A stretch of 64,000 bases of DNA from a virus: the UHGV virus genome UHGV-0222911. One strand, written 5' to 3'. Position numbers and translations under genes: made by a program. The notes under the pieces were generated by a model. That model was given only the letters and a program-made list of their open reading frames with translations, had not been told where the DNA came from and ran no database searches. This document shows positions 43,176 through 61,930 of the stretch, in pieces (the first letter of the stretch is position 1; every line of letters starts with the position of its first letter).

Positions 43176-43205
43176 AGAAAATAAAAAAGGCTCCCGAAGG
43201 AGCCT
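43176..43205 (-). terminator. rho-independent terminator-like hairpin downstream of endolysin gene
   Basis: Minus-strand AGGCTCC-TTCG-GGAGCCT followed by TTTTTTATTTT. Confidence 0.45.
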
Positions 43206-43214
43206 ATGAAGATA

Positions 43215-43679
43215 TTACTTTGGGTATACACTGTCAAGATAAATGTCAGCTTCCATTCTACGTCTGTTTTTAAGACCGTTTGAGGTGACCTTCTTACCTT
43301 TGACTGTAACCTTGTTCCACCACTGCATAGCTTCTGCACAACCTACCTTATTACCAGCATTGTGGCGCTTGATAAATGTAGAATCCTGCATAGCTGTGAT
43401 ACCGATGTTGTATGTTTCACTTACAAGTGCATCGAACTCATTCTGAGAAGTTGGAACCTTGATAGCTTTGTTCACTGCTGCAACAAACTTTTCAACATCT
43501 GCGAGAAGATACTGTTCGGCTTGTTCAGCAGTAATTTTCATACCCATCTTAACAGGTTTCCCGTCAATACGGATTGTGCCATACCCAATTGTTGGGATTC
43601 CGGCAGAGTCTTCGTAAGCCTCTAGCTTCAGACCTTCAAAGAACTTAATGGCTTCTAAGCCTTTTCTTGAGAGTTGCAT
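43215..43679 (-). CDS. endolysin, phage lysozyme (GH24 muramidase-like)
   Basis: 154 aa; EGLKLEAYEDSAGIPTIGYG with catalytic Glu-Asp-Thr spacing typical of T4/lambda-type lysozymes (recalled). Confidence 0.65.
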   Translation of the reverse strand: MQLSRKGLEAIKFFEGLKLEAYEDSAGIPTIGYGTIRIDGKPVKMGMKITAEQAEQYLLADVEKFVAAVNKAIKVPTSQNEFDALVSETYNIGITAMQDSTFIKRHNAGNKVGCAEAMQWWNKVTVKGKKVTSNGLKNRRRMEADIYLDSVYPK

Positions 43680-45061
43680 TATGCCTCCCCTGTTGGGTTA
43701 ACTGTAACTGTTGCCGCATTAGATGTTACAGAGCCACCTGCACCAGTTACAACACAAGTGTAGCTTCCTGCATCAGCAGCGGTTGCACCTTCTTTGGTGT
43801 AAGTTGCAGTAGTTGCGTCTGGGATGTTTTCCTCACCCTTCTTCCACTGGTAGCCTGTTGCACCTGTTGCCACAACATTCAGCGTTAAGGTCTCACCTTC
43901 AGTGATTTCTTGATTGGTTGGCTGTTGAGTGATTACAGGAAGAGCATTCACAGTTACTACAGCAGCGTCAGAGACTACATCTCCACCTGCGCCAGTTACC
44001 GTGCATTTGTAAGACCCAGCATCAGCAGGTGTTACACCAGCTTTGGTAAAGGTTGCAGATTTTGCTTCCTCAATACTTACGTTATCTTTGCTCCACTGGT
44101 AGCCTGTTGCTCCAGTTGCAACGATGTTAAGAGTAAGTGTGCCACCCTCATTTACTGTTTTTGCAGTTGGCTGTTGAGTGATTACAGGAAGAGCATTCAC
44201 AGTAACTGTCGCTGCACTAGATGTGACTGAACCACCCGCACCAGTTACTACACAGGTATATGAGCCTGCATCTGTTGGTAGTGCGCCAGACTTGCTATAG
44301 GTAGCTTCTGTAGCTGAAGGGATGTCAGAGCCATCTTTCTTCCATTGGTAACCTGTTGCACCCGTTGCAGTAACCTCCAAGTTGATATTTCCACCCTCAT
44401 TGATGGTCTGACTAGAAGGTTGCTGTGTAATCACGGGTAGCGCATTAACAGTAACTGTTGCCGCATCTGATGTAACACTTGTCCCTGCCTCTCCAGATAC
44501 AACACAAGTGTATGAACCAGCGTCAGAAGGCACTACAGATTGTTTTGTATAAGTTGCAGAAGTGGCACTGGAGATGTCCTCGCCACCCTTCTTCCACTGA
44601 TATCCAGTGGCATTAGTTGCGATAACGCTTAGGGTAAGTGTGCCACCCTCATTAACTGTTTGGTTTGTCGGTTGCTGAGTGATTGCTGGTGGCTTAATAG
44701 CATCCTTCAACTTAGCATTCAACATTGAGAACGGTTTAACTCTTGCCAACCATTCACAATAAACTGTATCAACGTCTTTACCATTGATAATTGCGTATTG
44801 TAAATCCATGAAGAAGTCAGAAGTTCTCATCTGAGCACCGATACTGTAAAGCAAATCATCACTAAAAGGGACTTTGTAGTCTGGTTTGTAGTCAAACTTC
44901 TCAACCTCTGCGATATCAGCTTCAGGCCAATATGAACTATAGGTAAGTGGTAAAATAGCCTCTTGATATGTTCTAAAATCATATCTCTTACCAGCCTTTA
45001 CATTTGCAATGAAGCCCTTTACAAATTCTTTGAAGTCTGGATAAGTCTTTGCTTTAATCAT
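43679..45061 (-). CDS. protein with four tandem Ig-like domains and a unique N-terminal domain
   Basis: 460 aa; four repeats of about 90 aa each (ITQQPTNQTVNEGGTLTL...ATGYQWKK...DAGSYTCVVTGAGGSVTS...ATVTVNALPV); N-terminal domain paralogous to neighbouring 45058..45429 product. Confidence 0.5.
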   Translation of the reverse strand: MIKAKTYPDFKEFVKGFIANVKAGKRYDFRTYQEAILPLTYSSYWPEADIAEVEKFDYKPDYKVPFSDDLLYSIGAQMRTSDFFMDLQYAIINGKDVDTVYCEWLARVKPFSMLNAKLKDAIKPPAITQQPTNQTVNEGGTLTLSVIATNATGYQWKKGGEDISSATSATYTKQSVVPSDAGSYTCVVSGEAGTSVTSDAATVTVNALPVITQQPSSQTINEGGNINLEVTATGATGYQWKKDGSDIPSATEATYSKSGALPTDAGSYTCVVTGAGGSVTSSAATVTVNALPVITQQPTAKTVNEGGTLTLNIVATGATGYQWSKDNVSIEEAKSATFTKAGVTPADAGSYKCTVTGAGGDVVSDAAVVTVNALPVITQQPTNQEITEGETLTLNVVATGATGYQWKKGEENIPDATTATYTKEGATAADAGSYTCVVTGAGGSVTSNAATVTVNPTGEA

Positions 45062-45429
45062 TTCTTTTTAGCCTCTAAACGTGCGTTTAATCTGAAATAG
45101 CCTTTATGTTGTGGAGATACATCACCAACAACAATACCTTCAACTTTATAACCCTTACCAATTACATACTGGATATCCATAAGAAACGTACCAAGCCCAA
45201 CAATGTGGAACATTGGGTATAGTAACTTATCTGAATCTGGGAGTTTAATGTCTGGGTTATAGGTAGGTTGCTCGGCAGTTGGTGTAATATCCTCTTCAGG
45301 CCATCTACTCATTCTCCATGTTAAAGGTGATGAAATAACATCGTTAAGATTGTATTTTTCACCATTCTCCACGGAGCGGATATAGGATTGTAGGAAGCAA
45401 TAAAAGTCTTTTGCACTCTTAGCCTTCAT
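45058..45429 (-). CDS. hypothetical protein, paralog of the N-terminal domain of the Ig-repeat protein
   Basis: 123 aa; MKAKSAKDFYCFLQSYIRSVENGEKY aligns with MIKAKTYPDFKEFVKGFIANVKAGKRY of the neighbour. Confidence 0.4.
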   Translation of the reverse strand: MKAKSAKDFYCFLQSYIRSVENGEKYNLNDVISSPLTWRMSRWPEEDITPTAEQPTYNPDIKLPDSDKLLYPMFHIVGLGTFLMDIQYVIGKGYKVEGIVVGDVSPQHKGYFRLNARLEAKKK

Positions 45430-45476
45430 TAAATATCCTTATAAATAGATAAAGGGGCGTTAGCCCCTGTTTACAC

Positions 45477-46067
45477 TTAAGCTTTGGTCTTAAGTAGGTT
45501 CTTAAGCTTTTTGAGATTCATGCTCTCATCAAACTTAAAACCAAATCCATTGACATAATCAATGAACTCGGATTTCTTACTAAGTGATAGTGCGTAACTC
45601 ATATCGAAGTTATTACTTGTTTCTGCGTCTGGACTAGAGTTCACATCAAATGAAATTTCTGTAGGTTCTTGTTTGCTGCTTCTCATATTATCAATCAATA
45701 GACAGGTATAGTTTGCCGGATAGAAGTTAACACTCCCATCAACATACCCATACTTATTATTGTGAATGAGGCTGGAAAATACCTTAAGAAATGTTTCTGC
45801 GTCGTGGCATACAAGTTTGAATTGACTGCATTCACCAAGAGCCACTAAAGAGTAAGGGCTTTCACTATCAATGTCATAATTCGGATTTGATGTTGTAACC
45901 GTCACACGCATCAGGTTATTGGCGATAGTCTTCTGCTTAAAAGAATTTGGAACATAGTGAAGACCTCTGTCACACTGATTAACTAACTCTTTCAATAGGT
46001 CGTTTGCATATGGTGAATTAATTGATACAGAGCCATCACTATTGTAATTAAAACTTACTGTTAACAT
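45477..46067 (-). CDS. hypothetical protein
   Basis: 196 aa ORF. Confidence 0.35.
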   Translation of the reverse strand: MLTVSFNYNSDGSVSINSPYANDLLKELVNQCDRGLHYVPNSFKQKTIANNLMRVTVTTSNPNYDIDSESPYSLVALGECSQFKLVCHDAETFLKVFSSLIHNNKYGYVDGSVNFYPANYTCLLIDNMRSSKQEPTEISFDVNSSPDAETSNNFDMSYALSLSKKSEFIDYVNGFGFKFDESMNLKKLKNLLKTKA

Positions 46068-47138: not shown

Positions 47139-48554
47139 ATGAGCGAATTATTTAAACATGCGCACCTTCATGCAGGTCGAACTGAAAATGGTGCTGTAAA
47201 CCATACTTCATCAATGTCTGCTCTTGTAGACTTTTACAAAGCTGCTGGTTCTAGCCGTAGCAATGTAGAAATCTTACCAGACCTGTTCTACAAAGCTTTG
47301 CGTGAGGATGTTGATGTTGCAGTTCGTATTTTACTGCATATGCGAGATGTACGAGAAGGTATGGGTGAGCGTAAAGCTTTCCGAACTGTTTTAATTCAAG
47401 CAGTTGAAGATAAAGTTTTAGAACCTACACAGGTTCTTCGCATTATGGATAAGATTGCAGAGCTTGGTCGCTTTGATGACTTCAAAATCTTTGTAGGTAC
47501 TCGTTTCGAGACAGATGCCTTCAAACACTTAGAAGCAGCATTACTAGACCCTGCAACAGCAGGTTTGGCGGCTAAGTGGTTACCACGAGTCAAACCACGT
47601 CATAAGCAGTTTGTAAAACGTTTCTGCAAGTTTGCCAACTTGAGCGAGAAAGAGTACCGCACACTGTTGTCTGCACTATCTGATACAGTTGAGCAAAAAA
47701 TCTCTGCTAATGAGTTTGGTAAGATTGACTACAGTAAGATTCCTTCACTTGCTGCTGCACGCTACCAAAAACTGTTTAACCGTAAAGATGGAGAGCGATA
47801 CAAAGCTTACATCGAGTCCTTATCAAAGGGTGAGGCTAAGATTAATGCTGGTGCTGTTTACCCATACGATGTGATTAAATCTGTCAAGCATGGTAATGCA
47901 GATGTTGCTAATGAGCAGTGGAAAGCACTACCAAACTGGATGGCAGAAGGTGAAAACATCTTATGTATGTCTGATGTATCAAGTTCAATGTCTTGGGTGA
48001 ATTTTGGCTCCATTACTGCTCTGGATATTGGTGTATCACTTGCCTTGTATGTAGCAGAACGCAATACAGGCTGCTTTAAGAATGAGTTGATGGTTTATTC
48101 AACAAACCCTCACTTCATCGAACTGAGTGGTGATTTACGAAACCGTCATCGTCAGGTGATGCGACACGTTGAATATGGCTCAACTAACTTACAAGCAGCT
48201 TTTGACCGTATTCTTGAGGTAGGTAAGAGAAACAACTTGACTCAGAAAGATATGCCAAGTAAGCTTATCATCTTCTCTGATATGGAGTTCAATCAGGTTG
48301 ATGGTGCAAATGGTCGTACAAACTTTGAAGTAATTCGTAGTAAGTACAAAAAAGCTGGATACGAAATGCCACAACTAGTATTCTGGTACTTAGCAAACCG
48401 TAATGGTACTTGCGAAGTGTCTGTTAAGGATAACGGTGTAGCAATGGTATCAGGGTTCTCTCCAGCCACTTTAAAAGCTCTGCTCGGTGGTGAGAATTTT
48501 GACCCAATCAGCGTAATGCTCAAAGCAGTAATGATTGACCGTTACATCTGGTAA
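47139..48554 (+). CDS. vWA-domain protein with helical N-terminal domain (possible Ro60/TROVE-like architecture)
   Basis: 471 aa; MIDAS-type DVSSSM (DxSxS) with downstream GSTN and FSDMEF elements in the C-terminal half; N-terminal about 280 aa helical. Confidence 0.45.
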   Translation: MSELFKHAHLHAGRTENGAVNHTSSMSALVDFYKAAGSSRSNVEILPDLFYKALREDVDVAVRILLHMRDVREGMGERKAFRTVLIQAVEDKVLEPTQVLRIMDKIAELGRFDDFKIFVGTRFETDAFKHLEAALLDPATAGLAAKWLPRVKPRHKQFVKRFCKFANLSEKEYRTLLSALSDTVEQKISANEFGKIDYSKIPSLAAARYQKLFNRKDGERYKAYIESLSKGEAKINAGAVYPYDVIKSVKHGNADVANEQWKALPNWMAEGENILCMSDVSSSMSWVNFGSITALDIGVSLALYVAERNTGCFKNELMVYSTNPHFIELSGDLRNRHRQVMRHVEYGSTNLQAAFDRILEVGKRNNLTQKDMPSKLIIFSDMEFNQVDGANGRTNFEVIRSKYKKAGYEMPQLVFWYLANRNGTCEVSVKDNGVAMVSGFSPATLKALLGGENFDPISVMLKAVMIDRYIW

Positions 48555-48719: not shown

Positions 48720-48796
48720 CTCTGTTTAGCTCAGCTTGGTAGAGCGTTCCGTTTGGGGCGGTAAGGCCGGAGGTTCAAGTCCTCCAACAGAGACCA
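48720..48796 (+). tRNA. tRNA-Pro (anticodon UGG)
   Basis: Cloverleaf parsed by eye: perfect 7-bp acceptor CTCTGTT/AACAGAG, D arm GCTC/GAGC, anticodon loop TTTGGGG, T loop TTCAAGT, CCA encoded. Confidence 0.7.
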
Positions 48797-48803
48797 AATT
48801 AAT

Positions 48804-48881
48804 GTTCCAGTAGACAAAATGGTAAAGTCACCACTCTTTCAAAGTGGATATTTGAGGGTTCAAATCCCTTCTGGAACGCCA
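48804..48881 (+). tRNA. tRNA-Glu (anticodon UUC)
   Basis: Acceptor GTTCCAG/CTGGAAC, anticodon stem CCACT/AGTGG loop CTTTCAA, T arm GAGGG-TTCAAAT-CCCTT, CCA. Confidence 0.65.
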
Positions 48882-48887
48882 GTTTTG

Positions 48888-48962
48888 ACAGAAGACCAAT
48901 TACAGCAAACTTAATCTTATTCATCTGAAGGTAAATCGGACAAAGAAGAGATTTGGTCTGGT
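48888..48962 (+). ncRNA. structured element family A, copy a (conserved stem ACAGAAGACCAAT...ATTTGGTCTGG)
   Basis: 5' ACAGAAGACCNNTTACAGCAA and 3' GGTCTGG conserved in 4 copies; ends are reverse-complementary. Confidence 0.4.
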
Positions 48963-48972
48963 CATTAAGAAT

Positions 48973-49049
48973 TGCGGGTATAGAGAAAGGGCGTCTCACA
49001 TGTCTCATTAGCATGGTATCGGCAGGTTCGACTCCTGCACCCGCCTCCA
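48973..49049 (+). tRNA. tRNA with anticodon CAU (Met or Ile2); irregular 5' half
   Basis: T arm GCAGG-TTCGACT-CCTGC, 3' acceptor ACCCGCC-T-CCA, anticodon stem CATGT/GCATG loop CTCATTA; 5' acceptor pairing imperfect by eye. Confidence 0.5.
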
Positions 49050-49056
49050 AATTTAC

Positions 49057-49120
49057 AGAAGACCGTTTACAGCAATATTTATTAAATTTTTAGCGGAAAA
49101 ATTGAAAGATACGGTCTGGT
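49057..49120 (+). ncRNA. structured element family A, copy b
   Basis: ACAGAAGACCGTTTACAGCAA ... ATACGGTCTGG with internal hairpin AATTTTT-AGCGG-AAAAATT. Confidence 0.4.
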
Positions 49121-49132
49121 AATACTAAACAT

Positions 49133-49209
49133 GGTTAGGAAGCACATAAGGTATGTGCGGTCGCCTGTTAAGCGAATGGCACAGGGTTCGAATCCCTGAC
49201 TAACCGCCA
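49133..49209 (+). tRNA. tRNA-Asn (anticodon GUU)
   Basis: Acceptor GGTTAGG/ACTAACC, D arm GCAC/GTGC, anticodon loop CTGTTAA, T arm CAGGG-TTCGAAT-CCCTG, CCA. Confidence 0.65.
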
Positions 49210-49278
49210 AATTTAGGAGAGAAGCGATTGCTCACCGATTTGTAAGGTGCAAGTCCTTAGCCTGAATAGAAATTAAAT

Positions 49279-49366
49279 GTGTCGTTATCCCGTAGATGGT
49301 AGCGGTGGGGACTGTAAATCCCTTGTCATTGAGACTCGGTAGGTTCGACTCCTACACGGCACACCA
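49279..49366 (+). tRNA. tRNA-Tyr (anticodon GUA), long variable arm
   Basis: Acceptor GTGTCGT/ACGGCAC, anticodon stem GGGGA/TCCCT loop CTGTAAA, 14-nt variable arm, T arm GTAGG-TTCGACT-CCTAC, CCA. Confidence 0.65.
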
Positions 49367-49371
49367 AGTAA

Positions 49372-49450
49372 AGGTTATGTAGTTTAATCTGGTTAAAATA
49401 CTCCCCTGTCACGGGAGATGATGAGGGTTCGAATCCCTTCGTAACCGCCA
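49372..49450 (+). tRNA. tRNA-Asp (anticodon GUC)
   Basis: Acceptor GGTTATG/CGTAACC, anticodon stem CTCCC/GGGAG loop CTGTCAC, T arm GAGGG-TTCGAAT-CCCTT, CCA. Confidence 0.7.
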
Positions 49451-49529
49451 AATTATAATAAGTATTTCAAAATGATGTTTTGAGAGGGCTATTTAGCCCC
49501 TCCCTTAAAGAGTTCTTACGAGTATTCTT

Positions 49530-49612
49530 TAAAGGAGCAGAAGACCAAATTCAGCAAGTTACTTAAAATTTCAAGCCAATTTAATTTTGAAAAATTTAAA
49601 ACTTGGTCTGGC
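49530..49612 (+). ncRNA. structured element family A, copy c
   Basis: GCAGAAGACCAAATTCAGCAA ... AACTTGGTCTGG. Confidence 0.4.
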
Positions 49613-49623
49613 TCAACAAATTT

Positions 49624-49756
49624 ACAGAAGACCGTTTACAGCAAACTTTAAACAATCTATTTCTCCGGTAAAGAAAAGGCGAAGGTTCGATTCCTTCACT
49701 CGGCAGATGTCGAGTTGGTGTAATGGTAGCACTTAAGATGATAAACAACGGTCTGG
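49624..49756 (+). ncRNA. structured element family A, copy d, enclosing a tRNA-like module (T arm then acceptor/D-arm-like segment)
   Basis: Outer stem CAGAAGACCGTT/AACGGTCTGG; inside GAAGG-TTCGATT-CCTTC + ACTCGGC followed by GTCGAGT-TG-GTGTAATGGTAGCAC (acceptor strands complementary but in 3'-then-5' order). Confidence 0.4.
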
Positions 49757-49900
49757 TAATTATCTTTGCAGATAAGTTATTAAGCTTACCTGTGAGTATG
49801 CGACCACAAAGGGTGAAAGGGTAAATTCTAGATTTAAACCCAACAAGGCACATCGCTACAGACCTTAAGCAAGTCTGGGTAGCTTATCTACAAAGATAAT
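49757..49900 (+). ncRNA. candidate structured RNA bounded by inverted repeats TATCTTTGCAGATAAG / CTTATCTACAAAGATA
   Basis: Terminal 16-nt arms reverse-complementary (1 mismatch); internal hairpins CAGACC-TTAAGCAA-GTCTG and palindrome TAAATTCTAGATTTA. Confidence 0.3.
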
Positions 49901-49905
49901 TTAAT

Positions 49906-49981
49906 GGAAGTGTAGCAGAATGGTGATGCGGCAGACTTTTAATCTGACAGGCGATGGGTTCGAATCCCTCCACTTCTACCA
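49906..49981 (+). tRNA. tRNA-Lys (anticodon UUU)
   Basis: Acceptor GGAAGTG/CACTTCT, anticodon loop CTTTTAA, T loop TTCGAAT, CCA; paralog of tRNA at 51982. Confidence 0.55.
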
Positions 49982-50060
49982 AATTCACCCTTAACTGAGA
50001 AACACCTGCGCGGCTGGAAACACCCACTCAACAGTTTCTCTAACTAGGGTACTTATTCTG

Positions 50061-50136
50061 GTTCAGTCGCAGATAAGGTAATGCAAGGGTCTCATAAGCC
50101 CTATGAATGTGGGTTCGATTCCCATCTGAACCTCCA
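50061..50136 (+). tRNA. tRNA with anticodon CAU (Met or Ile2)
   Basis: Perfect acceptor GGTTCAG/CTGAACC, anticodon stem AGGGT/GCCCT loop CTCATAA, T arm GTGGG-TTCGATT-CCCAT, CCA. Confidence 0.65.
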
Positions 50137-50137
50137 A

Positions 50138-50213
50138 GCTGGTATAGTTAAGAAGGTTATAACACTCCCCTGATAAGGGAACATCGGTGGTTCGATTCCA
50201 CCTACCAGTACCA
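50138..50213 (+). tRNA. tRNA-Ile (anticodon GAU)
   Basis: Acceptor GCTGGTA/TACCAGT, D arm GTTA/TAAC, anticodon loop CTGATAA, T arm GGTGG-TTCGATT-CCACC, CCA. Confidence 0.65.
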
Positions 50214-50228
50214 ATTTCAATAAAGTTG

Positions 50229-50258
50229 TTGACATTGAGATGTGACCACTTTATAGTA
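50229..50258 (+). promoter_or_regulatory. sigma70-like promoter inside tRNA cluster
   Basis: TTGACA-17-TATAGT. Confidence 0.4.
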
Positions 50259-50461
50259 ACCTTAGTTTTCGTTGCGTAGCGTCTATTTTGCAAATTTAAA
50301 ATAAATGCAAACGACAATGTTTTTCTGGCAGTAGCTTGATAGGCTAAACACCAGTGAGGTCTTCCAATCCCTCATCAAAGAATTTGGCGTACTCGCCCAC
50401 GGTATGATTAATAAGGTGGGCATCTTTAAGGGCTTTCTAAGAGAGTCTTTAAAGATAATTA

Positions 50462-50543
50462 CGGGGCGTATCTCAGCGGTCTTCTAAACCGCCGTTAACC
50501 GAGTAAGTGGAGTATGCGGGTTCGAGTCCTGCCGCCTCGACCA
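50462..50543 (+). tRNA. atypical tRNA-like gene (anticodon-like loop CTTCTAA = UCU, Arg?) immediately upstream of HNH gene
   Basis: Perfect 7-bp acceptor CGGGGCG/CGCCTCG, T arm GCGGG-TTCGAGT-CCTGC, CCA, hairpin GCGGT-CTTCTAA-ACCGC; no canonical D arm found by eye, 23-nt extra region. Confidence 0.35.
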
Positions 50544-50557
50544 ATTTTGGAGAAATC

Positions 50558-50905
50558 ATGAAAACTTGTATTAGGTGCAAACTTAGCAAGGATGAAAATG
50601 ATTTCTACATGAAAGATGGTAGGAGAACTCATTCATACTGTAAAAAGTGTGTTAATGAGCAAACCATAGAAAGACAAAGAGCACTTAAACTCTTAGCTAT
50701 TGAGTACAAAGGTGGGGTTTGTCATGATTGTGGTAAGAAGTATCATCCAGCAGTGTATGACTTCCATCATTTGAATCCTTCAGATAAAGATTTTAACATT
50801 GGTCATAGGAAAAGCCTTAAGTTCTCTCAAGAACTAAAAGATGAACTTGACAAATGTGTTTTGCTATGTTCAAATTGCCATAGGGTAAGACATGCAAAAT
50901 ATTAG
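50558..50905 (+). CDS. HNH endonuclease with N-terminal zinc-finger (inserted in tRNA cluster)
   Basis: Track ORF 50507.. overlaps tRNA; trimmed to MKTCIRCKL; HHLNPSDKDF...CVLLCSNCHRVRH HNH/Zn motif; paralog of 51134..51538. Confidence 0.55.
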   Translation: MKTCIRCKLSKDENDFYMKDGRRTHSYCKKCVNEQTIERQRALKLLAIEYKGGVCHDCGKKYHPAVYDFHHLNPSDKDFNIGHRKSLKFSQELKDELDKCVLLCSNCHRVRHAKY

Positions 50906-51048
50906 TTAGCAGATTACTTAGACGACCTTAGCGGGTCTTCCTGTAGGGAGGTGGTCTGTATCTCATGTTTTCCAGAACATGTAAATAATCTGAGAAGGGG
51001 CTTTACAGTGTTGAGATAATACGGTAAGCTTCGAATTATAGTTTTAAT

Positions 51049-51119
51049 AGGGGTGAGCTATGGCAGCAATAGAGTCTCCAAAATTCTTGATTAGAGTTCG
51101 AATCTCTACACCCATGCCA
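51049..51119 (+). tRNA. compact tRNA-like gene, anticodon loop CTCCAAA (CCA, Trp?)
   Basis: Acceptor AGGGGTG/CACCCAT (1 mismatch), anticodon stem AGAGT/ATTCT, T arm TAGAG-TTCGAAT-CTCTA, CCA; shortened D arm. Confidence 0.35.
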
Positions 51120-51133
51120 GAACAGGTGCTTGT

Positions 51134-51538
51134 ATGAAACTTTGTAGAAAATGTTCTCAAGAAAAGCCTTTAAGCTGCTTTCATAAAAGAGGTAATGGCT
51201 ATCAGTCTGCTTGCAAAGATTGTAAAGCTAAGTACTCAGCAAAGAGATACAAAGAAGACCCTACTTATAAAGCAAAAAGAAAAGTTAGGGCAAAATATGA
51301 CAAAAAGAGGAACAGAGAGTTCCTTAGTAGATATAAGAAGTTTTGCAAATGCAGAATATGTGGCGAATCTGAGCCAGTAGCTTTGGATTTTCATCACTTA
51401 GACCCTAAAGAGAAAGATTTTGCTCCAAGCAATCTTAAAACTTACTCTAGGGGCACTATTAAGCGTGAAGTCCGTAAGTGTGTTGTGCTTTGTTCAAACT
51501 GTCATAGGAAAGTTCATGCAGGACTGTTAAGTATTTAA
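51134..51538 (+). CDS. HNH endonuclease with N-terminal zinc-finger (inserted in tRNA cluster)
   Basis: 134 aa; CRKCSQEK...CKDCKAK and HHLDPKEKDF...CVVLCSNCHRKVH. Confidence 0.55.
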   Translation: MKLCRKCSQEKPLSCFHKRGNGYQSACKDCKAKYSAKRYKEDPTYKAKRKVRAKYDKKRNREFLSRYKKFCKCRICGESEPVALDFHHLDPKEKDFAPSNLKTYSRGTIKREVRKCVVLCSNCHRKVHAGLLSI

Positions 51539-51551
51539 CAGTCTTATTAGG

Positions 51552-51639
51552 GGTAGGTAGCGGCTAATGGTAGCCAAACTGTCTTGAAAACAGTTGCCAC
51601 TGTAGAGATACGGTGAGGGTTCGACTCCTTTACTTACCG
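51552..51639 (+). tRNA. tRNA-Ser (anticodon UGA), long variable arm
   Basis: Acceptor GGTAGGT/ACTTACC, D arm GGCT/AGCC, anticodon stem ACTGT/ACAGT loop CTTGAAA, 20-nt variable arm, T arm GAGGG-TTCGACT-CCTTT; CCA not fully encoded. Confidence 0.6.
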
Positions 51640-51796
51640 CCTAATAAGATTTAAAGCCAAGCTTCATTCGGATGTTGCTTTGGTATCCCTCGTGTATTGT
51701 CGTACACACTGATAAAGCACCTAGTAGGTGTCACGGAGAAGAGATAATATCAAGCTCTCCAAAGGTTCTAGTCACCGGATTAAACAAGACTATGCA

Positions 51797-51822
51797 AAGA
51801 CCTTTTTAGGTCTTTTTAGAGG
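51797..51822 (+). terminator. hairpin with T-runs inside tRNA cluster
   Basis: AGACC-TTTTTA-GGTCT followed by TTTTAG. Confidence 0.3.
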
Positions 51823-51896
51823 GCTTCTAAGGTTATTACAGCTTGTTGTGGAACCTTGTTGCTTAGGTTCTTAGAAGTTCTCTAAAAAGATTTAAT

Positions 51897-51974
51897 GGGA
51901 GATTGACGGTAATTGGTAAACCTACCATCCTTAGAAGTTGGTGTTTGAGGGTTCGAATCCCTTGTCTCCTACCA
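51897..51974 (+). tRNA. tRNA with anticodon UAG (Leu-type anticodon, short variable arm)
   Basis: Acceptor GGGAGAT/GTCTCCT, anticodon stem CCATC/GTTGG loop CTTAGAA, T arm GAGGG-TTCGAAT-CCCTT, CCA; D arm weak by eye. Confidence 0.45.
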
Positions 51975-51981
51975 AATTAAT

Positions 51982-52057
51982 GCAGGTGTAGCAAAATGGT
52001 TATGCGGCTGACTCTTAATCAGTAAGACGATGGGTTCAATTCCCTCCACCTGTACCA
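51982..52057 (+). tRNA. tRNA-Lys (anticodon CUU)
   Basis: Acceptor GCAGGTG/CACCTGT, anticodon loop CTCTTAA, T loop TTCAATT, CCA; paralog of tRNA at 49906. Confidence 0.55.
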
Positions 52058-52063
52058 AACAAT

Positions 52064-52139
52064 GGGGTCATAGTTTATATGGTTAAAATTCGAGTTTTGC
52101 AAACTTGGGAACTGAGTTCAATTCTCAGTGACTCCACCA
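52064..52139 (+). tRNA. tRNA-Ala (anticodon UGC)
   Basis: Acceptor GGGGTCA/TGACTCC, D arm GTTT/AAAT, anticodon stem CGAGT/ACTTG loop TTTGCAA, T arm CTGAG-TTCAATT-CTCAG, CCA. Confidence 0.7.
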
Positions 52140-52145
52140 ATTAGT

Positions 52146-52220
52146 GCATCCATAGTTTAAACGGGAAAATTACAGTCTTCCAAACTGAGGTTGAGGGTTC
52201 GATTCCCTCTGGATGCTCCA
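52146..52220 (+). tRNA. tRNA-Gly (anticodon UCC)
   Basis: Perfect acceptor GCATCCA/TGGATGC, anticodon loop CTTCCAA, T arm GAGGG-TTCGATT-CCCTC, CCA. Confidence 0.7.
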
Positions 52221-52227
52221 AATTAAT

Positions 52228-52304
52228 GCTGCTTTCGTATAATTGGCTATTACACATCCCTTGTAAGGATGGAAATGCAGGTTCGAGTCCTGTGAGCAGC
52301 ACCA
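52228..52304 (+). tRNA. tRNA-Thr (anticodon UGU)
   Basis: Acceptor GCTGCTT/GAGCAGC, anticodon stem CATCC/GGATG loop CTTGTAA, T arm GCAGG-TTCGAGT-CCTGT, CCA. Confidence 0.7.
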
Positions 52305-52305
52305 A

Positions 52306-52395
52306 TTCAGAGGTCAAGTGAAAGACCGCTGGTGTCAACTGAAGACCGTAACAAATTCCACGGAGTTGAGTTAGCGGCACAACTTCAGACCTCTT
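52306..52395 (+). ncRNA. structured element related to family A (contains TGAAGACCGTAACAAATTCC), flanked by CAGAGGTC / GACCTCT inverted repeat
   Basis: Lies between tRNA-Thr and tRNA-Val; no tRNA fold; shares GAAGACCGT core with family A. Confidence 0.3.
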
Positions 52396-52399
52396 TCAC

Positions 52400-52474
52400 A
52401 CTCGCTTAGTTTATATGGTAAAACATCACCCTTACAAGATGAAGAAAAAGGTTCAAGTCCTTTAGTGAGTACCA
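52400..52474 (+). tRNA. tRNA-Val (anticodon UAC)
   Basis: Acceptor ACTCGCT/AGTGAGT, D arm GTTT/AAAC, anticodon loop CTTACAA, T arm AAAGG-TTCAAGT-CCTTT, CCA. Confidence 0.7.
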
Positions 52475-52475
52475 T

Positions 52476-52553
52476 GTTCCAGTATCCCAATTGGCAGAGG
52501 ATGCAAGCTCAAACCTTGTATTAGTGACGGTTCGAATCCGTCTTGGAACACCA
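52476..52553 (+). tRNA. tRNA with anticodon CAA (Leu-type anticodon, short variable arm)
   Basis: Acceptor GTTCCAG/TTGGAAC, anticodon stem GCAAG/CTTGT loop CTCAAAC, T arm GACGG-TTCGAAT-CCGTC, CCA. Confidence 0.5.
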
Positions 52554-52569
52554 ATTTTAGGAGAACACT

Positions 52570-52677
52570 ATGATTAATAAATCAATTGCAAAAAAGTTTA
52601 TAGCGTCATTCAAAAACAGGCGTAAAAACAACTCTTGTGAAAAACTGTATGGTGTTCTTGTAGGTAAGCAGGATTAG
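52570..52677 (+). CDS. possible micro-ORF (35 aa) overlapping the 5' end of tRNA-Arg
   Basis: TAGGAGA RBS 5 nt upstream of ATG; MINKSIAKKFIASFKNRRKNNSCEKLYGVLVGKQD; below track cutoff; may be non-coding spacer. Confidence 0.15.
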   Translation: MINKSIAKKFIASFKNRRKNNSCEKLYGVLVGKQD

Positions 52678-52743
52678 TTCAAATGGATAGAGCAACAGTC
52701 TACGAAGCTGTTAATAGGGGTTCGAATCCCTTATCCTGCACCA
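52668..52743 (+). tRNA. tRNA-Arg (anticodon ACG)
   Basis: Perfect acceptor GCAGGAT/ATCCTGC, D arm GTTC/GAGC, anticodon stem ACAGT/GCTGT loop CTACGAA, T arm AGGGG-TTCGAAT-CCCTT, CCA. Confidence 0.7.
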
Positions 52744-52762
52744 ATTTAAAGAGGCTATTTAG

Positions 52763-53320
52763 ATGAGATATTTGAAGTATGCTTCATGGATTTTCTTAGC
52801 TTTGTTAGAGCCATTTGCAGCAATCTTAGCAGTTATCTTAGCACCTTTCGTAGTCCCATTCTACAGTGAGAAGAAAGGACACTTACCTTTCGGCTTCAGA
52901 TGGATGGAGACATATGACAACCCAATTGATGGTGATAAAGGGCATGTCGAACGATGGGCTAAGATTAGAAAGATTGGCAAGCTTGGTGTCTATATGCAGA
53001 GAGTCGGTTGGCTCTGGAGAAACAAAGCTTATAACTTCTCTTACCATGTATTAGGAAGAGATGTAAAAGATGTTACTAAGTGGAAAGGTAATATCAACGT
53101 AAGTTCTAACCCTGAAGATAATCAGACAGGTTATCTCCTAATGTGGAACAGTAATGCTTGGGGATTATTCGCTTTTATCCCATCAATTAAAGTCTTTGGT
53201 AAACAATTCTACTGGAGAATTTATGTTGGATGGAAGCTAAAAAGTGTTGTCCCAGAAGAAAGAGCATTCTCAAGGGAAAGAGTTATGTTGGCATTCTTTA
53301 TTCATCCACTAAGAAAGTAA
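52763..53320 (+). CDS. hypothetical membrane protein embedded in tRNA cluster
   Basis: 185 aa; N-terminal hydrophobic WIFLALLEPFAAILAVILAPFVVPF. Confidence 0.4.
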   Translation: MRYLKYASWIFLALLEPFAAILAVILAPFVVPFYSEKKGHLPFGFRWMETYDNPIDGDKGHVERWAKIRKIGKLGVYMQRVGWLWRNKAYNFSYHVLGRDVKDVTKWKGNINVSSNPEDNQTGYLLMWNSNAWGLFAFIPSIKVFGKQFYWRIYVGWKLKSVVPEERAFSRERVMLAFFIHPLRK

Positions 53321-53328
53321 AGATTTAA

Positions 53329-53404
53329 AGGGGATTAGTTTACAAGGTTAAAACCTCGGTCTTTGAAATCGAAGAAGTTGGTTCAATTCCAACATCCCCC
53401 GCCA
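53329..53404 (+). tRNA. tRNA-Gln (anticodon UUG)
   Basis: Acceptor AGGGGAT/ATCCCCC (1:72 unpaired), D arm GTTT/AAAC, anticodon stem TCGGT/ATCGA loop CTTTGAA, T arm GTTGG-TTCAATT-CCAAC, CCA. Confidence 0.65.
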
Positions 53405-53406
53405 AT

Positions 53407-53485
53407 GCTCCATTACTCCAATTGGTAGAGAGGCCAGACTTAAAATCTGTGTTATGTATCGGTTCGAATCCGATATGGAGTACCA
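53407..53485 (+). tRNA. tRNA with anticodon UAA (Leu-type anticodon, short variable arm)
   Basis: Acceptor GCTCCAT/ATGGAGT, anticodon loop CTTAAAA between CAGA/TCTG stem, T arm ATCGG-TTCGAAT-CCGAT, CCA. Confidence 0.5.
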
Positions 53486-53490
53486 AATTT

Positions 53491-53566
53491 AGCGGTATAG
53501 CATAACTGGCAATGCAGCAGTCTCTGAAGCTGTCTTATTAAGGTTCAAATCCTTATGCCGCTGCCA
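53491..53566 (+). tRNA. tRNA-Gln (anticodon CUG)
   Basis: Acceptor AGCGGTA/TGCCGCT, D arm GCAT/ATGC, anticodon stem GCAGT/GCTGT loop CTCTGAA, T arm TAAGG-TTCAAAT-CCTTA, CCA. Confidence 0.65.
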
Positions 53567-53597
53567 CTTCTAAGGGTTCTTACGAGAGTCCTTAAAT

Positions 53598-53673
53598 GTG
53601 GCCTTATCATAAATGGTAATGACCCATGCTGTGAACATGGTCTATACGGGTTCAAATCCCGTAGGTCACCCCA
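53598..53673 (+). tRNA. tRNA-His (anticodon GUG)
   Basis: Acceptor GTGGCCT/AGGTCAC, D arm TCAT/ATGA, anticodon stem CCATG/CATGG loop CTGTGAA, T arm ACGGG-TTCAAAT-CCCGT, CCA. Confidence 0.7.
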
Positions 53674-53679
53674 ATTTAT

Positions 53680-53755
53680 AGTCCAAGTAGCTTATATGGT
53701 TAAAGCGCGTGTCTGAAAAACATGAGAAGAGGGTTCAAATCCCACTGGACTACCA
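53680..53755 (+). tRNA. tRNA-Phe (anticodon GAA)
   Basis: Acceptor TAGTCCA/TGGACTA, D arm GCTT/AAGC, anticodon stem CGTGT/ACATG loop CTGAAAA, T arm GAGGG-TTCAAAT-CCCAC. Confidence 0.6.
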
Positions 53756-53771
53756 ATTTCAAAGGTGCTTA

Positions 53772-54458
53772 ATGAAAGAGATGACAGAACAAGGTAAGGA
53801 GATTTTTAATCTCTTAAAAACTGGTAAAGGGTTTTCTAACCCCCTTATTACTGGTGCAGCAGTTCTCGGTGGAACCGTAGCTGCCTCTACATCACTTGTA
53901 AGCTCTATTAGCTCTGTATCAGACCCTACAGTAAAGGATAAGCTTGTTGCTGCTGGACTTACAACAGTTCTGCTTAACAGCTTTACCACGAGTCTGACAA
54001 GCACTACATCAACTACCAAAACACTGACAGATTACGGTCAAAAGTCCATTGATGAGTTTTCATCACGTATGCAGGTAGCAAAAGGTTATTCTAATGTTAT
54101 GGGTGCAGCAGGTGAACAAGTTGGCTGTACACCATTTAGTGGTATTATGGGTGTTGCTACAGAGTATGGTCAAAAAGCTATTGATACGATTAATAGTGCA
54201 CTAGACGGTGTTAATGATGTATTAAGTGACTTACAAGACGCTATTGACAAAGGTCTTGATACTATTTCTGATTTAGCTAACCAAGCTGTTAGTAAGATTA
54301 ATGAAGGTATCTCGAAGATTACAGCTTATGCAGATGAAGTTGTGCAGATGATTGAAGAAGAAGCTGCCCTTATTGCAGAGTACCTTAAAACGAATATCAA
54401 TGGGTTCTTAGCAGGTATCTACCAGACTGGTTTGATGATGCTTGTAAAACTGGTGTAA
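53772..54458 (+). CDS. hypothetical Ser/Thr-rich protein with N-terminal hydrophobic region
   Basis: Track ORF 53709.. overlaps tRNA-Phe; trimmed to MKEMTEQGKEIF; 228 aa. Confidence 0.4.
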   Translation: MKEMTEQGKEIFNLLKTGKGFSNPLITGAAVLGGTVAASTSLVSSISSVSDPTVKDKLVAAGLTTVLLNSFTTSLTSTTSTTKTLTDYGQKSIDEFSSRMQVAKGYSNVMGAAGEQVGCTPFSGIMGVATEYGQKAIDTINSALDGVNDVLSDLQDAIDKGLDTISDLANQAVSKINEGISKITAYADEVVQMIEEEAALIAEYLKTNINGFLAGIYQTGLMMLVKLV

Positions 54459-54507
54459 TTGACACTATTGCAACACCAGAAATGAAGAACGCATTACAGA
54501 AATAAAT

Positions 54508-54600
54508 GGAAGATTAACCCTAAAAGGTAAGGGAGCAGTTTGCTAAACTGCCAGTAGCTGAGAAATCGGTGTACCAGTTCAAGTCTGGTATCTTCCTCCA
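54508..54600 (+). tRNA. tRNA-Ser (anticodon GCU), long variable arm
   Basis: Perfect acceptor GGAAGAT/ATCTTCC, anticodon stem GCAGT/ACTGC loop TTGCTAA, 21-nt variable arm, T arm ACCAG-TTCAAGT-CTGGT, CCA. Confidence 0.65.
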
Positions 54601-54604
54601 ATTT

Positions 54605-54680
54605 GAATCCGTGACAGAAATGGCTATGTGCCTGTCTGCAAAACAGGTTTATAAGGGTTCGAGTCCCTTCGGATTCTCCA
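54605..54680 (+). tRNA. tRNA-Cys (anticodon GCA)
   Basis: Perfect acceptor GAATCCG/CGGATTC, anticodon stem CCTGT/ACAGG loop CTGCAAA, T arm AAGGG-TTCGAGT-CCCTT, CCA. Confidence 0.7.
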
Positions 54681-60412: not shown

Positions 60413-60790
60413 ATGGCATATCAAGGTTTTACTAAGTTAGGTAAAAGAGAACCTCTGAATGATATCATTCTTTGGGAACAGGTTACCCCAACAGGCCACT
60501 CTCGTAAAGAGTACACCCCACAGGCATCTACAGAATATCGTGTAGGTGAAGTTCTGAAAGCAGATGGTACTAAAGTTGCAGCAGGGGAAGAAGCTCAGGC
60601 TGATTCTGTATGTATCGTTAACTTTTATGCAGACCTGCAACTGTCTTACCACGGTCAGTTGAAAGTTGTTGGTATTTACCGTGACGCAGAACTGAAAGAC
60701 ATGCTGACTCTTGAGTCTGGTGTTAATGCCGAGAGCGTCAAGACAGCTCTGGCTGCTAAAGGTATTGATTTCGTACCAACTGGCCTGTAA
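60413..60790 (+). CDS. hypothetical head protein (possible decoration protein)
   Basis: 125 aa between protease/scaffold and major capsid genes. Confidence 0.35.
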   Translation: MAYQGFTKLGKREPLNDIILWEQVTPTGHSRKEYTPQASTEYRVGEVLKADGTKVAAGEEAQADSVCIVNFYADLQLSYHGQLKVVGIYRDAELKDMLTLESGVNAESVKTALAAKGIDFVPTGL

Positions 60791-60823: not shown

Positions 60824-61930
60824 ATGTTGACTAATTCTGAAAAAAGCAGATTTTTCCTTGCTGACCTGACTGGTGAAGTCCAGTCTATCCCAAATACTTA
60901 TGGGTATATTTCCAACTTAGGTCTGTTCCGTTCAGCACCAATCACCCAAACTACTTTCCTTATGGACTTGACTGATTGGGATGTTAGCTTGCTTGATGCG
61001 GTAGACCGTGATAGCCGTAAAGCAGAGACTAGCGCACCTGAGCGTGTTCGTCAAATCAGCTTCCCAATGATGTACTTCAAAGAAGTTGAAAGCATTACTC
61101 CTGATGAAATTCAGGGTGTACGTCAGCCAGGCACTGCAAACGAACTGACTACTGAAGCTGTAGTACGTGCTAAGAAGCTGATGAAGATTCGTACCAAGTT
61201 CGATATTACTCGTGAGTTCCTGTTTATGCAAGCTCTGAAGGGTAAAGTTGTTGATGCTCGTGGTACTCTGTATGCTGACCTGTACAAGCAGTTCGACGTT
61301 GAGAAGAAGACTGTTTACTTCGACCTTGACAACCCTAATGCTGACATCGACGCTTCTATTGAAGAACTGCGTATGCACATGGAAGACGAAGCTAAGACTG
61401 GCACTGTAATCAACGGTGAAGAAATTCACGTAGTTGTTGACCGTGTATTCTTCAGCAAGCTGACTAAACACCCTAAGATTCGTGATGCCTATCTTGCACA
61501 GCAGACCCCACTGGCTTGGCAACAGATTACTGGTTCTCTGAGAACTGGTGGTACTGACGGCGTTCAGGCTCACATGAACACTTTCTACTACGGTGGTGTT
61601 AAGTTTGTCCAGTACAACGGTAAGTTCAAAGACAAGCGTGGTAAGGTTCATACTCTGGTGAGCATTGATGGTGCTGGTGCAGAGGTTGGTGTAGGACACG
61701 CTTTCCCTAACGTTTCTATGCTGGGTGAAGCAAACAACATCTTCGAAGTGGCTTATGGCCCATGCCCTAAGATGGGTTACGCAAATACACTTGGTCAGGA
61801 ACTGTATGTATTCGAATACGAAAAAGACCGTGATGAAGGTATTGACTTCGAAGCTCACTCTTACATGCTGCCATACTGTACTCGTCCTCAGTTGCTGGTA
61901 GACGTTCGTTCTGACGCTAAAGACGAATAA
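60824..61930 (+). CDS. major capsid protein
   Basis: 368 aa ORF in canonical position after protease/scaffold; strong RBS; long antisense ORF on opposite strand is consistent with highly expressed gene codon bias. Confidence 0.6.
   Translation: MLTNSEKSRFFLADLTGEVQSIPNTYGYISNLGLFRSAPITQTTFLMDLTDWDVSLLDAVDRDSRKAETSAPERVRQISFPMMYFKEVESITPDEIQGVRQPGTANELTTEAVVRAKKLMKIRTKFDITREFLFMQALKGKVVDARGTLYADLYKQFDVEKKTVYFDLDNPNADIDASIEELRMHMEDEAKTGTVINGEEIHVVVDRVFFSKLTKHPKIRDAYLAQQTPLAWQQITGSLRTGGTDGVQAHMNTFYYGGVKFVQYNGKFKDKRGKVHTLVSIDGAGAEVGVGHAFPNVSMLGEANNIFEVAYGPCPKMGYANTLGQELYVFEYEKDRDEGIDFEAHSYMLPYCTRPQLLVDVRSDAKDE

What the first reader, a model, noticed from the sequence alone, without database searches (positions are those of the whole stretch)
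43679..45429. Protein with four tandem Ig-like domains and a duplicated N-terminal module, encoded next to the endolysin
The 460-aa minus-strand protein contains four consecutive repeats of about 90 aa with the Ig-like signature (xYxWxK ... DAGSYTCVVTGAGGSVTS), encoded by near-identical DNA repeats of about 270 bp (about 43700-44700). Its N-terminal domain of about 120 aa is paralogous to the adjacent 123-aa protein. Phage Ig-like domains are typically displayed on virions (Hoc-like decoration, fibres) and mediate adhesion to carbohydrates, yet this gene lies in a block with the endolysin rather than in the morphogenesis module. The DNA repeats are also a substrate for copy-number variation.
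Basis: seen in the sequence. Interest (0 to 1): 0.5.

Follow-up and report, generated by a model that had tools for sequence, protein, structure and literature searches.

The report
Known Hoc-like capsid decoration protein
The gene encodes the already characterised "Hex-Dec" head-decoration protein of Felix O1-like phages, a capsid anchor carrying four immunoglobulin-like domains; the only piece not yet described is the small neighbouring gene, which is a copy of the anchor alone.

Summary
The ORFs, the four Ig repeats, the N-terminal paralogy and the position next to the endolysin are all real. Two details are wrong. The repeat unit is 83 aa / 249 bp, not about 90 aa / 270 bp. The DNA copies are only 61-70% identical, not near-identical.

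The window is a Felixounavirus. The 460-aa protein differs by one residue over the 458 aligned residues from PDB 9NCF chain S, the Bas63 (JohannRWettstein) "Hex-Dec" protein. Cryo-EM placed that protein as a monomer at hexamer centres of the T=9 capsid. [quoted passage not shown] The Sf14 homologue gp20 and Felix O1 gp36 were found in virions by mass spectrometry.

Variation in Ig number and the position of the gene outside the structural module are both published.

My additions are modest:
- Paralogue, Hex-Dec and endolysin form a cassette of overlapping genes. CapBD-endolysin adjacency holds even in distant relatives.
- One-Ig variants are in-register Ig1/Ig4 chimeras.
- There are two kinds of four-Ig protein.
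- The 123-aa paralogue is not mentioned in the papers I read. It is under purifying selection, is transcribed late in Felix O1, was not reported in virions, and lacks both capsid-anchoring arginines.

The parts
43679..45061 (-). Hex-Dec: Hoc-like hexamer-centre capsid decoration protein, 460 aa
   Evidence: ORF. One residue differs from PDB 9NCF chain S over 458 aligned residues. Best PHROGs match is phrog_3995, labelled 'tail protein', which the Bas63 paper identifies as a misannotation; Hoc-like phrogs also match.
44693..45061 (-). Capsid-binding domain (CapBD), aa 1-123, including Arg79 and Arg107
   Evidence: Aligns 1:1 with the modelled parts of 9NCF_S and 9C2D_S. R79 and R107 are present; in Sf14 they form salt bridges with MCP Asp221 (PMC11821841).
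44441..44692 (-). Ig-like domain 1 (aa 124-207)
   Evidence: Pfam Ig_3/I-set; segmentation.
44192..44440 (-). Ig-like domain 2 (aa 208-290)
   Evidence: Present in three- and four-Ig relatives, absent from two-Ig relatives.
43943..44191 (-). Ig-like domain 3 (aa 291-373), the Bas63-type extra domain
   Evidence: Absent from three-Ig relatives. The other four-Ig relatives carry a different third domain, 58-60% identical.
43694..43942 (-). Ig-like domain 4 (aa 374-456)
   Evidence: This terminal domain is kept in nearly all relatives. It is homologous to the Ig domain of T5 pb10, PDB 5LXK, E=1.5e-11.
45058..45429 (-). Ig-less paralogue of the CapBD, 123 aa (Bas63 gp125, Felix O1 ORF37, phrog_4463)
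   Evidence: 36% identity to the CapBD, E=5e-18. The only significant PDB fold matches are 9c2d_S and 9ncf_S. dN/dS is 0.11. Gly78 and Gln107 stand in place of the anchoring arginines.
43215..43679 (-). Endolysin (T4-lysozyme type), last gene of the cassette; its ATG overlaps the Hex-Dec stop (TAATG)
   Evidence: Pfam Phage_lysozyme E=6.6e-41; junction sequence.
45453..45468 (-). Terminator-like hairpin just upstream of the paralogue
   Evidence: The matching hairpin is listed among the predicted terminators of Felix O1 (PMC3185647 Table 2).
43188..43205 (-). Terminator-like hairpin just downstream of the endolysin
60824..61930 (+). Major capsid protein, the binding partner; Asp221 is present
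   Evidence: Near-identical to 9NCF_A and 9C2D_A; residue 221 is D.

Best explanation
The 460-aa protein is the Felixounavirus 'Hex-Dec' head-decoration protein.

How it most likely works: one monomer plugs its N-terminal helical capsid-binding domain (aa 1-123) into the centre of a major-capsid-protein hexamer. Arg79 and Arg107 form salt bridges with the ring of MCP Asp221. It occupies only the 60 pentamer-proximal hexamers of the T=9 shell. Four acidic I-set-type Ig domains (net charge about -14) extend outward as a flexible fibre. By analogy with T4 Hoc and T5 pb10, the fibre probably mediates weak adhesion to host surfaces, mucus or other particles. That last step is inferred, not shown.

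Genomic setting: the gene is the middle of a three-gene cassette, CapBD-only paralogue, then Hex-Dec, then endolysin. The genes overlap by 4 nt and 1 nt, and terminator-like hairpins lie on both sides. The cassette sits about 10 kb upstream of the terminase, across a tRNA island.

The 123-aa paralogue is a conserved, selected gene that is transcribed late in Felix O1. It has the same fold but lacks both anchoring arginines, and it has not been reported in virions. My guess, and it is only a guess, is that it is a non-structural or transient assembly or occupancy factor for Hex-Dec or the hexamer site.
For: Identity:
- One residue differs from Bas63 Hex-Dec (PDB 9NCF_S) over 458 aligned residues; E=3.6e-166 to Sf14 gp20 (9C2D_S).

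Location on the capsid:
- Cryo-EM of Bas63 (PMC12609058) and Sf14 (PMC11821841).
- Virion mass spectrometry: Sf14 gp20 and Felix O1 gp36 at 44% coverage (PMC3185647).

Anchoring residues:
- R79 and R107 are present and MCP D221 is present.

Ig domains:
- Pfam hits; calculated charge.

Cassette:
- ATGA and TAATG overlaps; hairpins.
- Paralogue-Hex-Dec adjacency in all 27 IMG/VR loci, with the endolysin directly downstream wherever the contig extends far enough (25 of 27). The same order holds in a relative whose paralogue is in a separate 50%-identity cluster.
- In Felix O1, ORFs 36 and 37 peak late, at 60 min.

Paralogue:
- Sequence homology; fold match; dN/dS 0.11.
- Arginines replaced.
- Not among the 17 Felix O1 virion proteins. 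No density was seen at the other hexamers.

Function hint:
- Bas63 g124 knockouts were less fit on E. coli S17-1 than on three other hosts (PMC11482910).
Against: - The binding target of the Ig fibre has not been measured for any Ounavirinae phage, so the adhesion role rests on analogy.
- The Ig domains were not resolved in either cryo-EM map.
- For the paralogue there is no direct functional evidence. Its absence from virions rests on one 2010 proteome with a 25% coverage cut-off and on icosahedrally averaged maps, either of which could miss a low-occupancy 14-kDa protein.
- The paralogue model is only moderate (pLDDT 61.5), and its alignment included CapBD sequences.
Confidence: 0.9

Rival explanations
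1. It is a tail protein or major tail protein, as most Felixounavirus genome records annotate it.
For: Records under the match carry 'tail protein', 'putative tail protein' or 'major tail protein'. phrog_3995 is labelled 'tail protein'. Felix O1 gp36 was called 'major tail protein' in 2010. Ig_3/I-set domains also occur on phage tail-tube proteins (phrog_158 and phrog_853 hits).
Against: Two independent cryo-EM reconstructions model the N-terminal domain in capsid hexamer centres (9NCF_S, 9C2D_S). The Bas63 paper states explicitly that 'tail protein' is a misannotation. The tail-related phrog hits cover only the Ig repeats.
Confidence: 0.02
2. It is a lysis accessory, for example a cell-envelope-binding partner of the adjacent endolysin, rather than a virion component.
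For: Hex-Dec and the endolysin overlap (TAATG). CapBD-endolysin adjacency is conserved even in distant relatives.
Against: The protein is in virions by mass spectrometry and cryo-EM. In Felix O1 the endolysin ORF35 peaks at 25 min while ORFs 36 and 37 peak at 60 min. The linkage is better explained by shared late-stage expression.
Confidence: 0.03
3. The four-repeat array is an assembly artefact or a very recent, unstable tandem amplification.
For: Tandem repeats often misassemble, and copy number does differ among relatives.
Against: The copies are only 61-70% identical at DNA level and share no exact word longer than 26 nt. Protein identity exceeds DNA identity, which indicates old copies under selection. 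The same four-domain protein is encoded by Bas63 and was deposited as a 460-aa chain.
Confidence: 0.01
4. The 123-aa paralogue is itself a second capsid protein, an Ig-less plug. It would occupy sites that Hex-Dec does not, such as the 20 three-fold hexamers or proheads, or compete with Hex-Dec to set its occupancy.
For: It has the same fold and is clearly homologous to the CapBD. It is transcribed late together with Hex-Dec in Felix O1 and its stop codon overlaps the Hex-Dec start. It is under strong purifying selection. It is basic (pI 8.6), while the hexamer centre carries a ring of Asp221. In more distant relatives the single CapBD protein can lack Ig domains altogether (P0105).
Against: Both arginines that anchor the CapBD to Asp221 are replaced, by Gly78 and Gln107. 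Neither cryo-EM study saw density at the unoccupied hexamers. It is not among the Felix O1 virion proteins.
Confidence: 0.25

Closest known systems
Bas63 (Escherichia phage JohannRWettstein) Hex-Dec, gp124, PDB 9NCF chain S
   Same: Same length (460 aa), with one substitution over the 458 aligned residues. Same four Ig domains, including the Bas63-type third domain. Same neighbours: gp125 paralogue upstream, gp123 endolysin downstream. 97.8-98.3% nucleotide identity across the locus.
   Different: The rest of the window is only about 91% identical to the best database matches over 24 kb, and Bas63 is not among the eight best-covered records. This is therefore a different, mosaic Felixounavirus carrying the Bas63-type allele.
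Shigella phage Sf14 gp20 (PDB 9C2D chain S) and Felix O1 gp36
   Same: Homologous CapBD with Arg79 and Arg107, N-terminal anchor followed by C-terminal Ig domains, binding at pentamer-proximal hexamer centres, and presence in virions by mass spectrometry.
   Different: Sf14 gp20 has three Ig domains (372 aa) and Felix O1 gp36 has two (294 aa); the window protein has four.
T4 Hoc
   Same: A monomeric, non-essential-type decoration at hexamer centres, with a string of Ig-like domains projecting from a small capsid-binding domain and an acidic surface. PHROGs 'Hoc-like head decoration' families match the Ig part.
   Different: The domain order is reversed: in Hoc the Ig domains are N-terminal and the CapBD is C-terminal. 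According to the Bas63 paper the CapBD is topologically distinct, larger and pseudo-two-fold symmetric. T4 Hoc scores only weakly on I-set/PKD models. No T4 counterpart of the CapBD paralogue is known. T4 Inh, encoded upstream of hoc, shows no similarity to the 196-aa ORF upstream of the cassette.
T5 pb10 (PDB 5LXK, 8ZVI)
   Same: N-terminal capsid-binding domain plus a C-terminal Ig domain at hexamer centres. The Ig domain shows detectable sequence homology to Ig4 (E=1.5e-11 and 2.4e-11).
   Different: pb10 has a single Ig domain, and phmmer found no similarity in the capsid-binding part; only chain residues 81-160 aligned.

Membership tests
Ounavirinae Hex-Dec / Sf14 gp20 decoration protein family | N-terminal capsid-binding domain homologous to the modelled domain of 9NCF_S / 9C2D_S | tested here: met
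   phmmer E=3.4e-298 and 3.6e-166, with residues 1-123 aligned 1:1.
Ounavirinae Hex-Dec / Sf14 gp20 decoration protein family | Arg79 and Arg107, which form salt bridges with MCP Asp221 | tested here: met
   R79 and R107 are present. The MCP encoded at 60824-61930 has D221. The role of these residues comes from PMC11821841.
Ounavirinae Hex-Dec / Sf14 gp20 decoration protein family | One to four C-terminal Ig-like (I-set/Ig_3) domains | tested here: met
   Four domains, Pfam Ig_3 E=1.2e-42.
Ounavirinae Hex-Dec / Sf14 gp20 decoration protein family | Conserved gene position immediately upstream of the endolysin | tested here: met
Ounavirinae Hex-Dec / Sf14 gp20 decoration protein family | Physical binding as a monomer at centres of pentamer-proximal hexamers | not testable with these tools
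   Shown by cryo-EM for the Bas63 protein, which differs by one residue in the aligned region; inferred for this phage.
T4 Hoc family | N-terminal Ig-like domains followed by a C-terminal capsid-binding domain | tested here: not met
   The order is reversed: CapBD at aa 1-123, Ig domains at 124-456.
T4 Hoc family | Capsid-binding domain homologous to that of Hoc | tested here: inconclusive
   The Hoc-like PHROGs families match only the Ig region, aa 289-458. The Bas63 paper reports a distinct topology. I did not run a direct structural comparison.
CapBD-only paralogue family (phrog_4463) | About 123 aa, homologous to the Hex-Dec CapBD, no Ig domain, encoded immediately upstream of Hex-Dec | tested here: met
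   phrog_4463 E=1.5e-77; BLASTP E=5e-18 to the CapBD; position conserved in 27 of 27 loci plus L029 and L030.

The most novel reading that the evidence does not exclude
The 123-aa gene upstream is not mentioned in the papers I read and is not a dead duplicate. On this reading it is a conserved, late-expressed, Ig-less homologue of the hexamer-centre anchor that acts on the capsid or on Hex-Dec. It could be a transient prohead or hexamer-site placeholder, or an occupancy regulator that explains why Hex-Dec fills only 60 of the 80 hexamers. Together with the distant relatives, where the same anchor carries Big_2, I-set or a Lys/Ser-rich tail, this would make the CapBD a small, portable display scaffold that stays linked to the endolysin gene.
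Probability: 0.25. Interest if true: 0.4.

Novelty: already known. Interest (0 to 1): 0.15.

Why it matters
For the finding as written, little is new. The protein's structure, its capsid location, its Hoc-like architecture, its position outside the structural module and its variable Ig number were all published in 2025. Its presence in virions was shown in 2010.

The practical value is annotation. Most Felixounavirus records still call this gene a 'tail protein'.

The small residual interest has two parts. First, the CapBD-only paralogue is unstudied and could bear on how decoration proteins select a subset of quasi-equivalent hexamers. Second, the CapBD is a compact anchor that naturally tolerates different display domains, which is relevant to phage-display engineering.

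Tried and rejected
1. Programmed -1 frameshift fusing the paralogue to Hex-Dec. The junction reads GCT AAA AAG AAA TGA, which looks slippery. The motif is absent in relatives outside the close Felixounavirus group, and the frame offset differs in L022 and L023. The conserved element is a GAGG Shine-Dalgarno sequence, so this is ordinary stop/start overlap.
2. A T4 inh-hoc analogy for the upstream 196-aa ORF. The precomputed 'Phage_Inh_N (faint)' hit on a distant homologue was not reproduced. There is no similarity to T4 Inh, and T4 Inh itself does not match that Pfam family.
3. A shared late-promoter motif downstream of the upstream hairpin. CTATTTATAAGGA occurs once in the window, which is fewer than chance would give.
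4. σ70 promoter scan. The number of hits did not exceed shuffled controls, so it is uninformative.
5. Virion proteome lists for VpaE1 and fitness values for Bas63 gp125 are in figures or supplements that the library does not hold.
6. The search for homologous proteins with the CapBD returned almost only 210-aa, one-Ig proteins, a candidate-selection bias. I therefore took the copy-number distribution from BLAST spans and IMG/VR loci instead.
Full report
**Observation.** The region holds three overlapping minus-strand ORFs:
- a 123-aa ORF at 45058..45429;
- a 460-aa ORF at 43679..45061;
- a 154-aa ORF at 43215..43679.

The 460-aa protein scores Pfam Ig_3 at E=1.2e-42, Ig_2 at 4.6e-35 and I-set at 8.7e-34, each in four stretches. 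The 154-aa protein matches Phage_lysozyme at E=6.6e-41.

Segmenting the protein gives four domains of 83-84 aa at residues 124-456, which is nt 43694-44692. The start-to-start spacing of the DNA copies is 249, 249 and 252 bp. Pairwise identity between copies is 64-72% for protein but only 61-70% for DNA. The longest exact word shared by two copies is 26 nt, and Tandem Repeats Finder reports nothing in the region.

The N-terminal ~120 aa aligns with the 123-aa neighbour at 36% identity, E=5e-18. The paralogy is real.

**What it is.** Megablast places the locus in the genus Felixounavirus. The best match is Escherichia phage JohannRWettstein (Bas63) at 97.8% identity, where the gene is bas63_0124, "immunoglobulin-like domain protein".

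The protein differs by one residue over the 458 aligned residues from PDB 9NCF chain S. It matches Sf14 gp20 (PDB 9C2D chain S, 372 aa) at E=3.6e-166.

The Bas63 cryo-EM paper (PMC12609058) calls this protein Hex-Dec and reports the following:
- Four predicted Ig-like domains extend outward and were not resolved.
- The gene lies more than 10 kb outside the structural module.
- Most genomes misannotate it as "tail protein".
- The number of Ig domains varies from 1 to 4 across the genus.
- By analogy with Hoc, it may serve adhesion or environment sensing.

The Sf14 paper (PMC11821841) gives the same picture. It adds virion mass spectrometry and identifies gp20 Arg79 and Arg107 as forming salt bridges with MCP Asp221. 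Both arginines are present here. The window also encodes the MCP at 60824-61930, which has Asp221.

Felix O1 gp36, the two-Ig homologue, was detected in virions at 44% coverage in 2010, and its authors had already noted its position away from the morphogenesis genes (PMC3185647).

**Genomic setting.** The paralogue's stop overlaps the Hex-Dec start (ATGA). The Hex-Dec stop overlaps the endolysin start (TAATG). A conserved GAGG Shine-Dalgarno sequence lies within the last codons of the paralogue. Terminator-like hairpins flank the three genes at 45468-45453 and 43205-43188. The upstream hairpin corresponds to a terminator predicted in Felix O1.

In Felix O1 RT-PCR, ORFs 36 and 37 peak at 60 min together with tail and portal genes. 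The endolysin ORF35 and ORF38 peak at 25 min.

The terminase, portal, protease, β-tulip Dec and MCP genes start at 55112. Between them and the cassette lie a DUF5681 gene, a DUF2828/vWA-type gene and a 26-tRNA island. In a more distant relative without the island, the cassette lies about 4.7 kb from the terminase. The "odd" location is thus the outer edge of the late region, pushed away by the tRNA island.

**Copy-number variation.** I anchored a BLAST query in the endolysin and the paralogue. Spans in 60 sampled records fall into classes of about 1901, 1652, 1403 and 1151 bp, which correspond to 4, 3, 2 and 1 Ig domains.

In 27 IMG/VR loci the paralogue-Hex-Dec order is invariant. The endolysin follows directly wherever the contig extends far enough, which is 25 of the 27 loci. 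Scored against the window's four domains, the architectures are:

| Architecture | Loci |
|---|---|
| Ig1-Ig4 | 10 |
| Ig1-Ig2-Ig4 | 9 |
| single domain, Ig1-like | 2 |
| single domain, Ig4-like | 2 |
| Ig1-Ig2-X-Ig4 | 2 |

In the last class, X is only 58-60% identical to the window's Ig3. There are therefore two kinds of four-Ig protein.

The single-domain proteins are in-register Ig1/Ig4 chimeras. Their junctions fall at different conserved motifs, GYQWKK or DAGSYTCVV, which indicates independent deletions. Several database phages other than Bas63 carry four domains. This is a small extension of the published statement that Bas63 alone has four.

**The paralogue.** Neither cryo-EM paper contains the words "paralog" or "gp125", and the PhageMaP preprint does not mention gp125. 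What I found:
- It belongs to phrog_4463, function unknown.
- It is conserved at 64-98% identity across Ounavirinae.
- A further relative, in a separate 50%-identity cluster, keeps the same gene order.
- Median pairwise dN/dS is 0.11, against 0.05 for the CapBD.
- An AlphaFold2 model is moderate (pLDDT 61.5, pTM 0.58). Its only significant PDB fold matches are 9c2d_S and 9ncf_S, at TM about 0.6 and probability 1.00. The input alignment included CapBD sequences, so this is not fully independent of the sequence homology.
- At the positions of the two anchoring arginines it has Gly78 and Gln107, the latter His or Arg in a few homologues.
- It is basic (pI 8.6), whereas the CapBD has pI 6.3.
- It is not among the 17 Felix O1 virion proteins, and no density was seen on the hexamers that Hex-Dec leaves empty.

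The simplest reading is a late, non-structural or transient factor related to the anchor. A role as a minor capsid protein cannot be excluded.

**Family breadth.** A profile of CapBD plus paralogue sequences, searched against 1.84 billion representative proteins, found only 12 clusters. Distant members carry the anchor fused to Big_2 (P0101, P0102, P0104), to an I-set-like domain (P0103), or to a Lys/Ser-rich tail (P0105). Where genomic context was available and the neighbour could be identified (P0101, P0105 and the P0099/P0100 locus), the gene sits directly upstream of a lysozyme gene, and in the first two it has no second copy. The gene downstream of P0103 has no Pfam match. The duplication therefore appears specific to the core Ounavirinae. 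The anchor-endolysin linkage is older.

**Function.** The only functional data come from a Bas63 knockout screen. There, g124 mutants were less fit on E. coli S17-1 than on three other hosts, and the authors speculated about adherence (PMC11482910). The adhesion role of the Ig fibre is inferred from Hoc and pb10, not shown.

**Verdict.** The feature is already known and structurally characterised. The residual novelty lies in the paralogue, which the papers I read do not mention, and it is modest.

Noticed in passing
window 48720-54680 (+): An island of 26 tRNA genes lies between the decoration/endolysin cassette and the terminase gene. A distant relative (L029) lacks the island, and there the cassette lies about 4.7 kb from the terminase.
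   Followed up: partly
window 47139-48554 (+): A 471-aa ORF directly upstream of the tRNA island matches phrog_850 'RNA-binding protein'. Relatives annotate it as a vWFA protein, and a distant homologue carries DUF2828 and DUF7788. A conserved RNA-binding/vWA-type protein next to a tRNA array may deserve its own look.
   Followed up: no
L031 869-1489; L032 6001-6462; L035 2179-2868: Distant members of the capsid-anchor family carry other C-terminal modules: Big_2, a Lys/Ser-rich tail, or a single I-set-like domain. In L031 and L032 the gene sits just upstream of a lysozyme gene; the gene downstream in L035 has no Pfam match. The whole family has only 12 clusters at 50% identity among 1.84 billion proteins.
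   Followed up: partly
window 45477-46067 (-): The 196-aa ORF upstream of the cassette (phrog_4034, function unknown) is syntenic even in distant relatives (L029, L031, L032). It has no Pfam match and no similarity to T4 Inh.
   Followed up: partly
window 60413-60790 (+): This 125-aa ORF is labelled 'tail protease' in PHROGs (phrog_4146). According to the Bas63 paper, the Dec protein (gp7), a β-tulip capsid decoration, is annotated as 'tail protease'; the ORF sits just upstream of the MCP gene, where gp7 lies. This looks like a second widespread misannotation.
   Followed up: partly
window 30000-54000: Over 24 kb the window is only about 91% identical to the closest phage records, and Bas63 is not among the best-covered records. 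The Hex-Dec locus alone is 98% identical to Bas63. This suggests a mosaic genome that carries the Bas63-type four-Ig allele.
   Followed up: no
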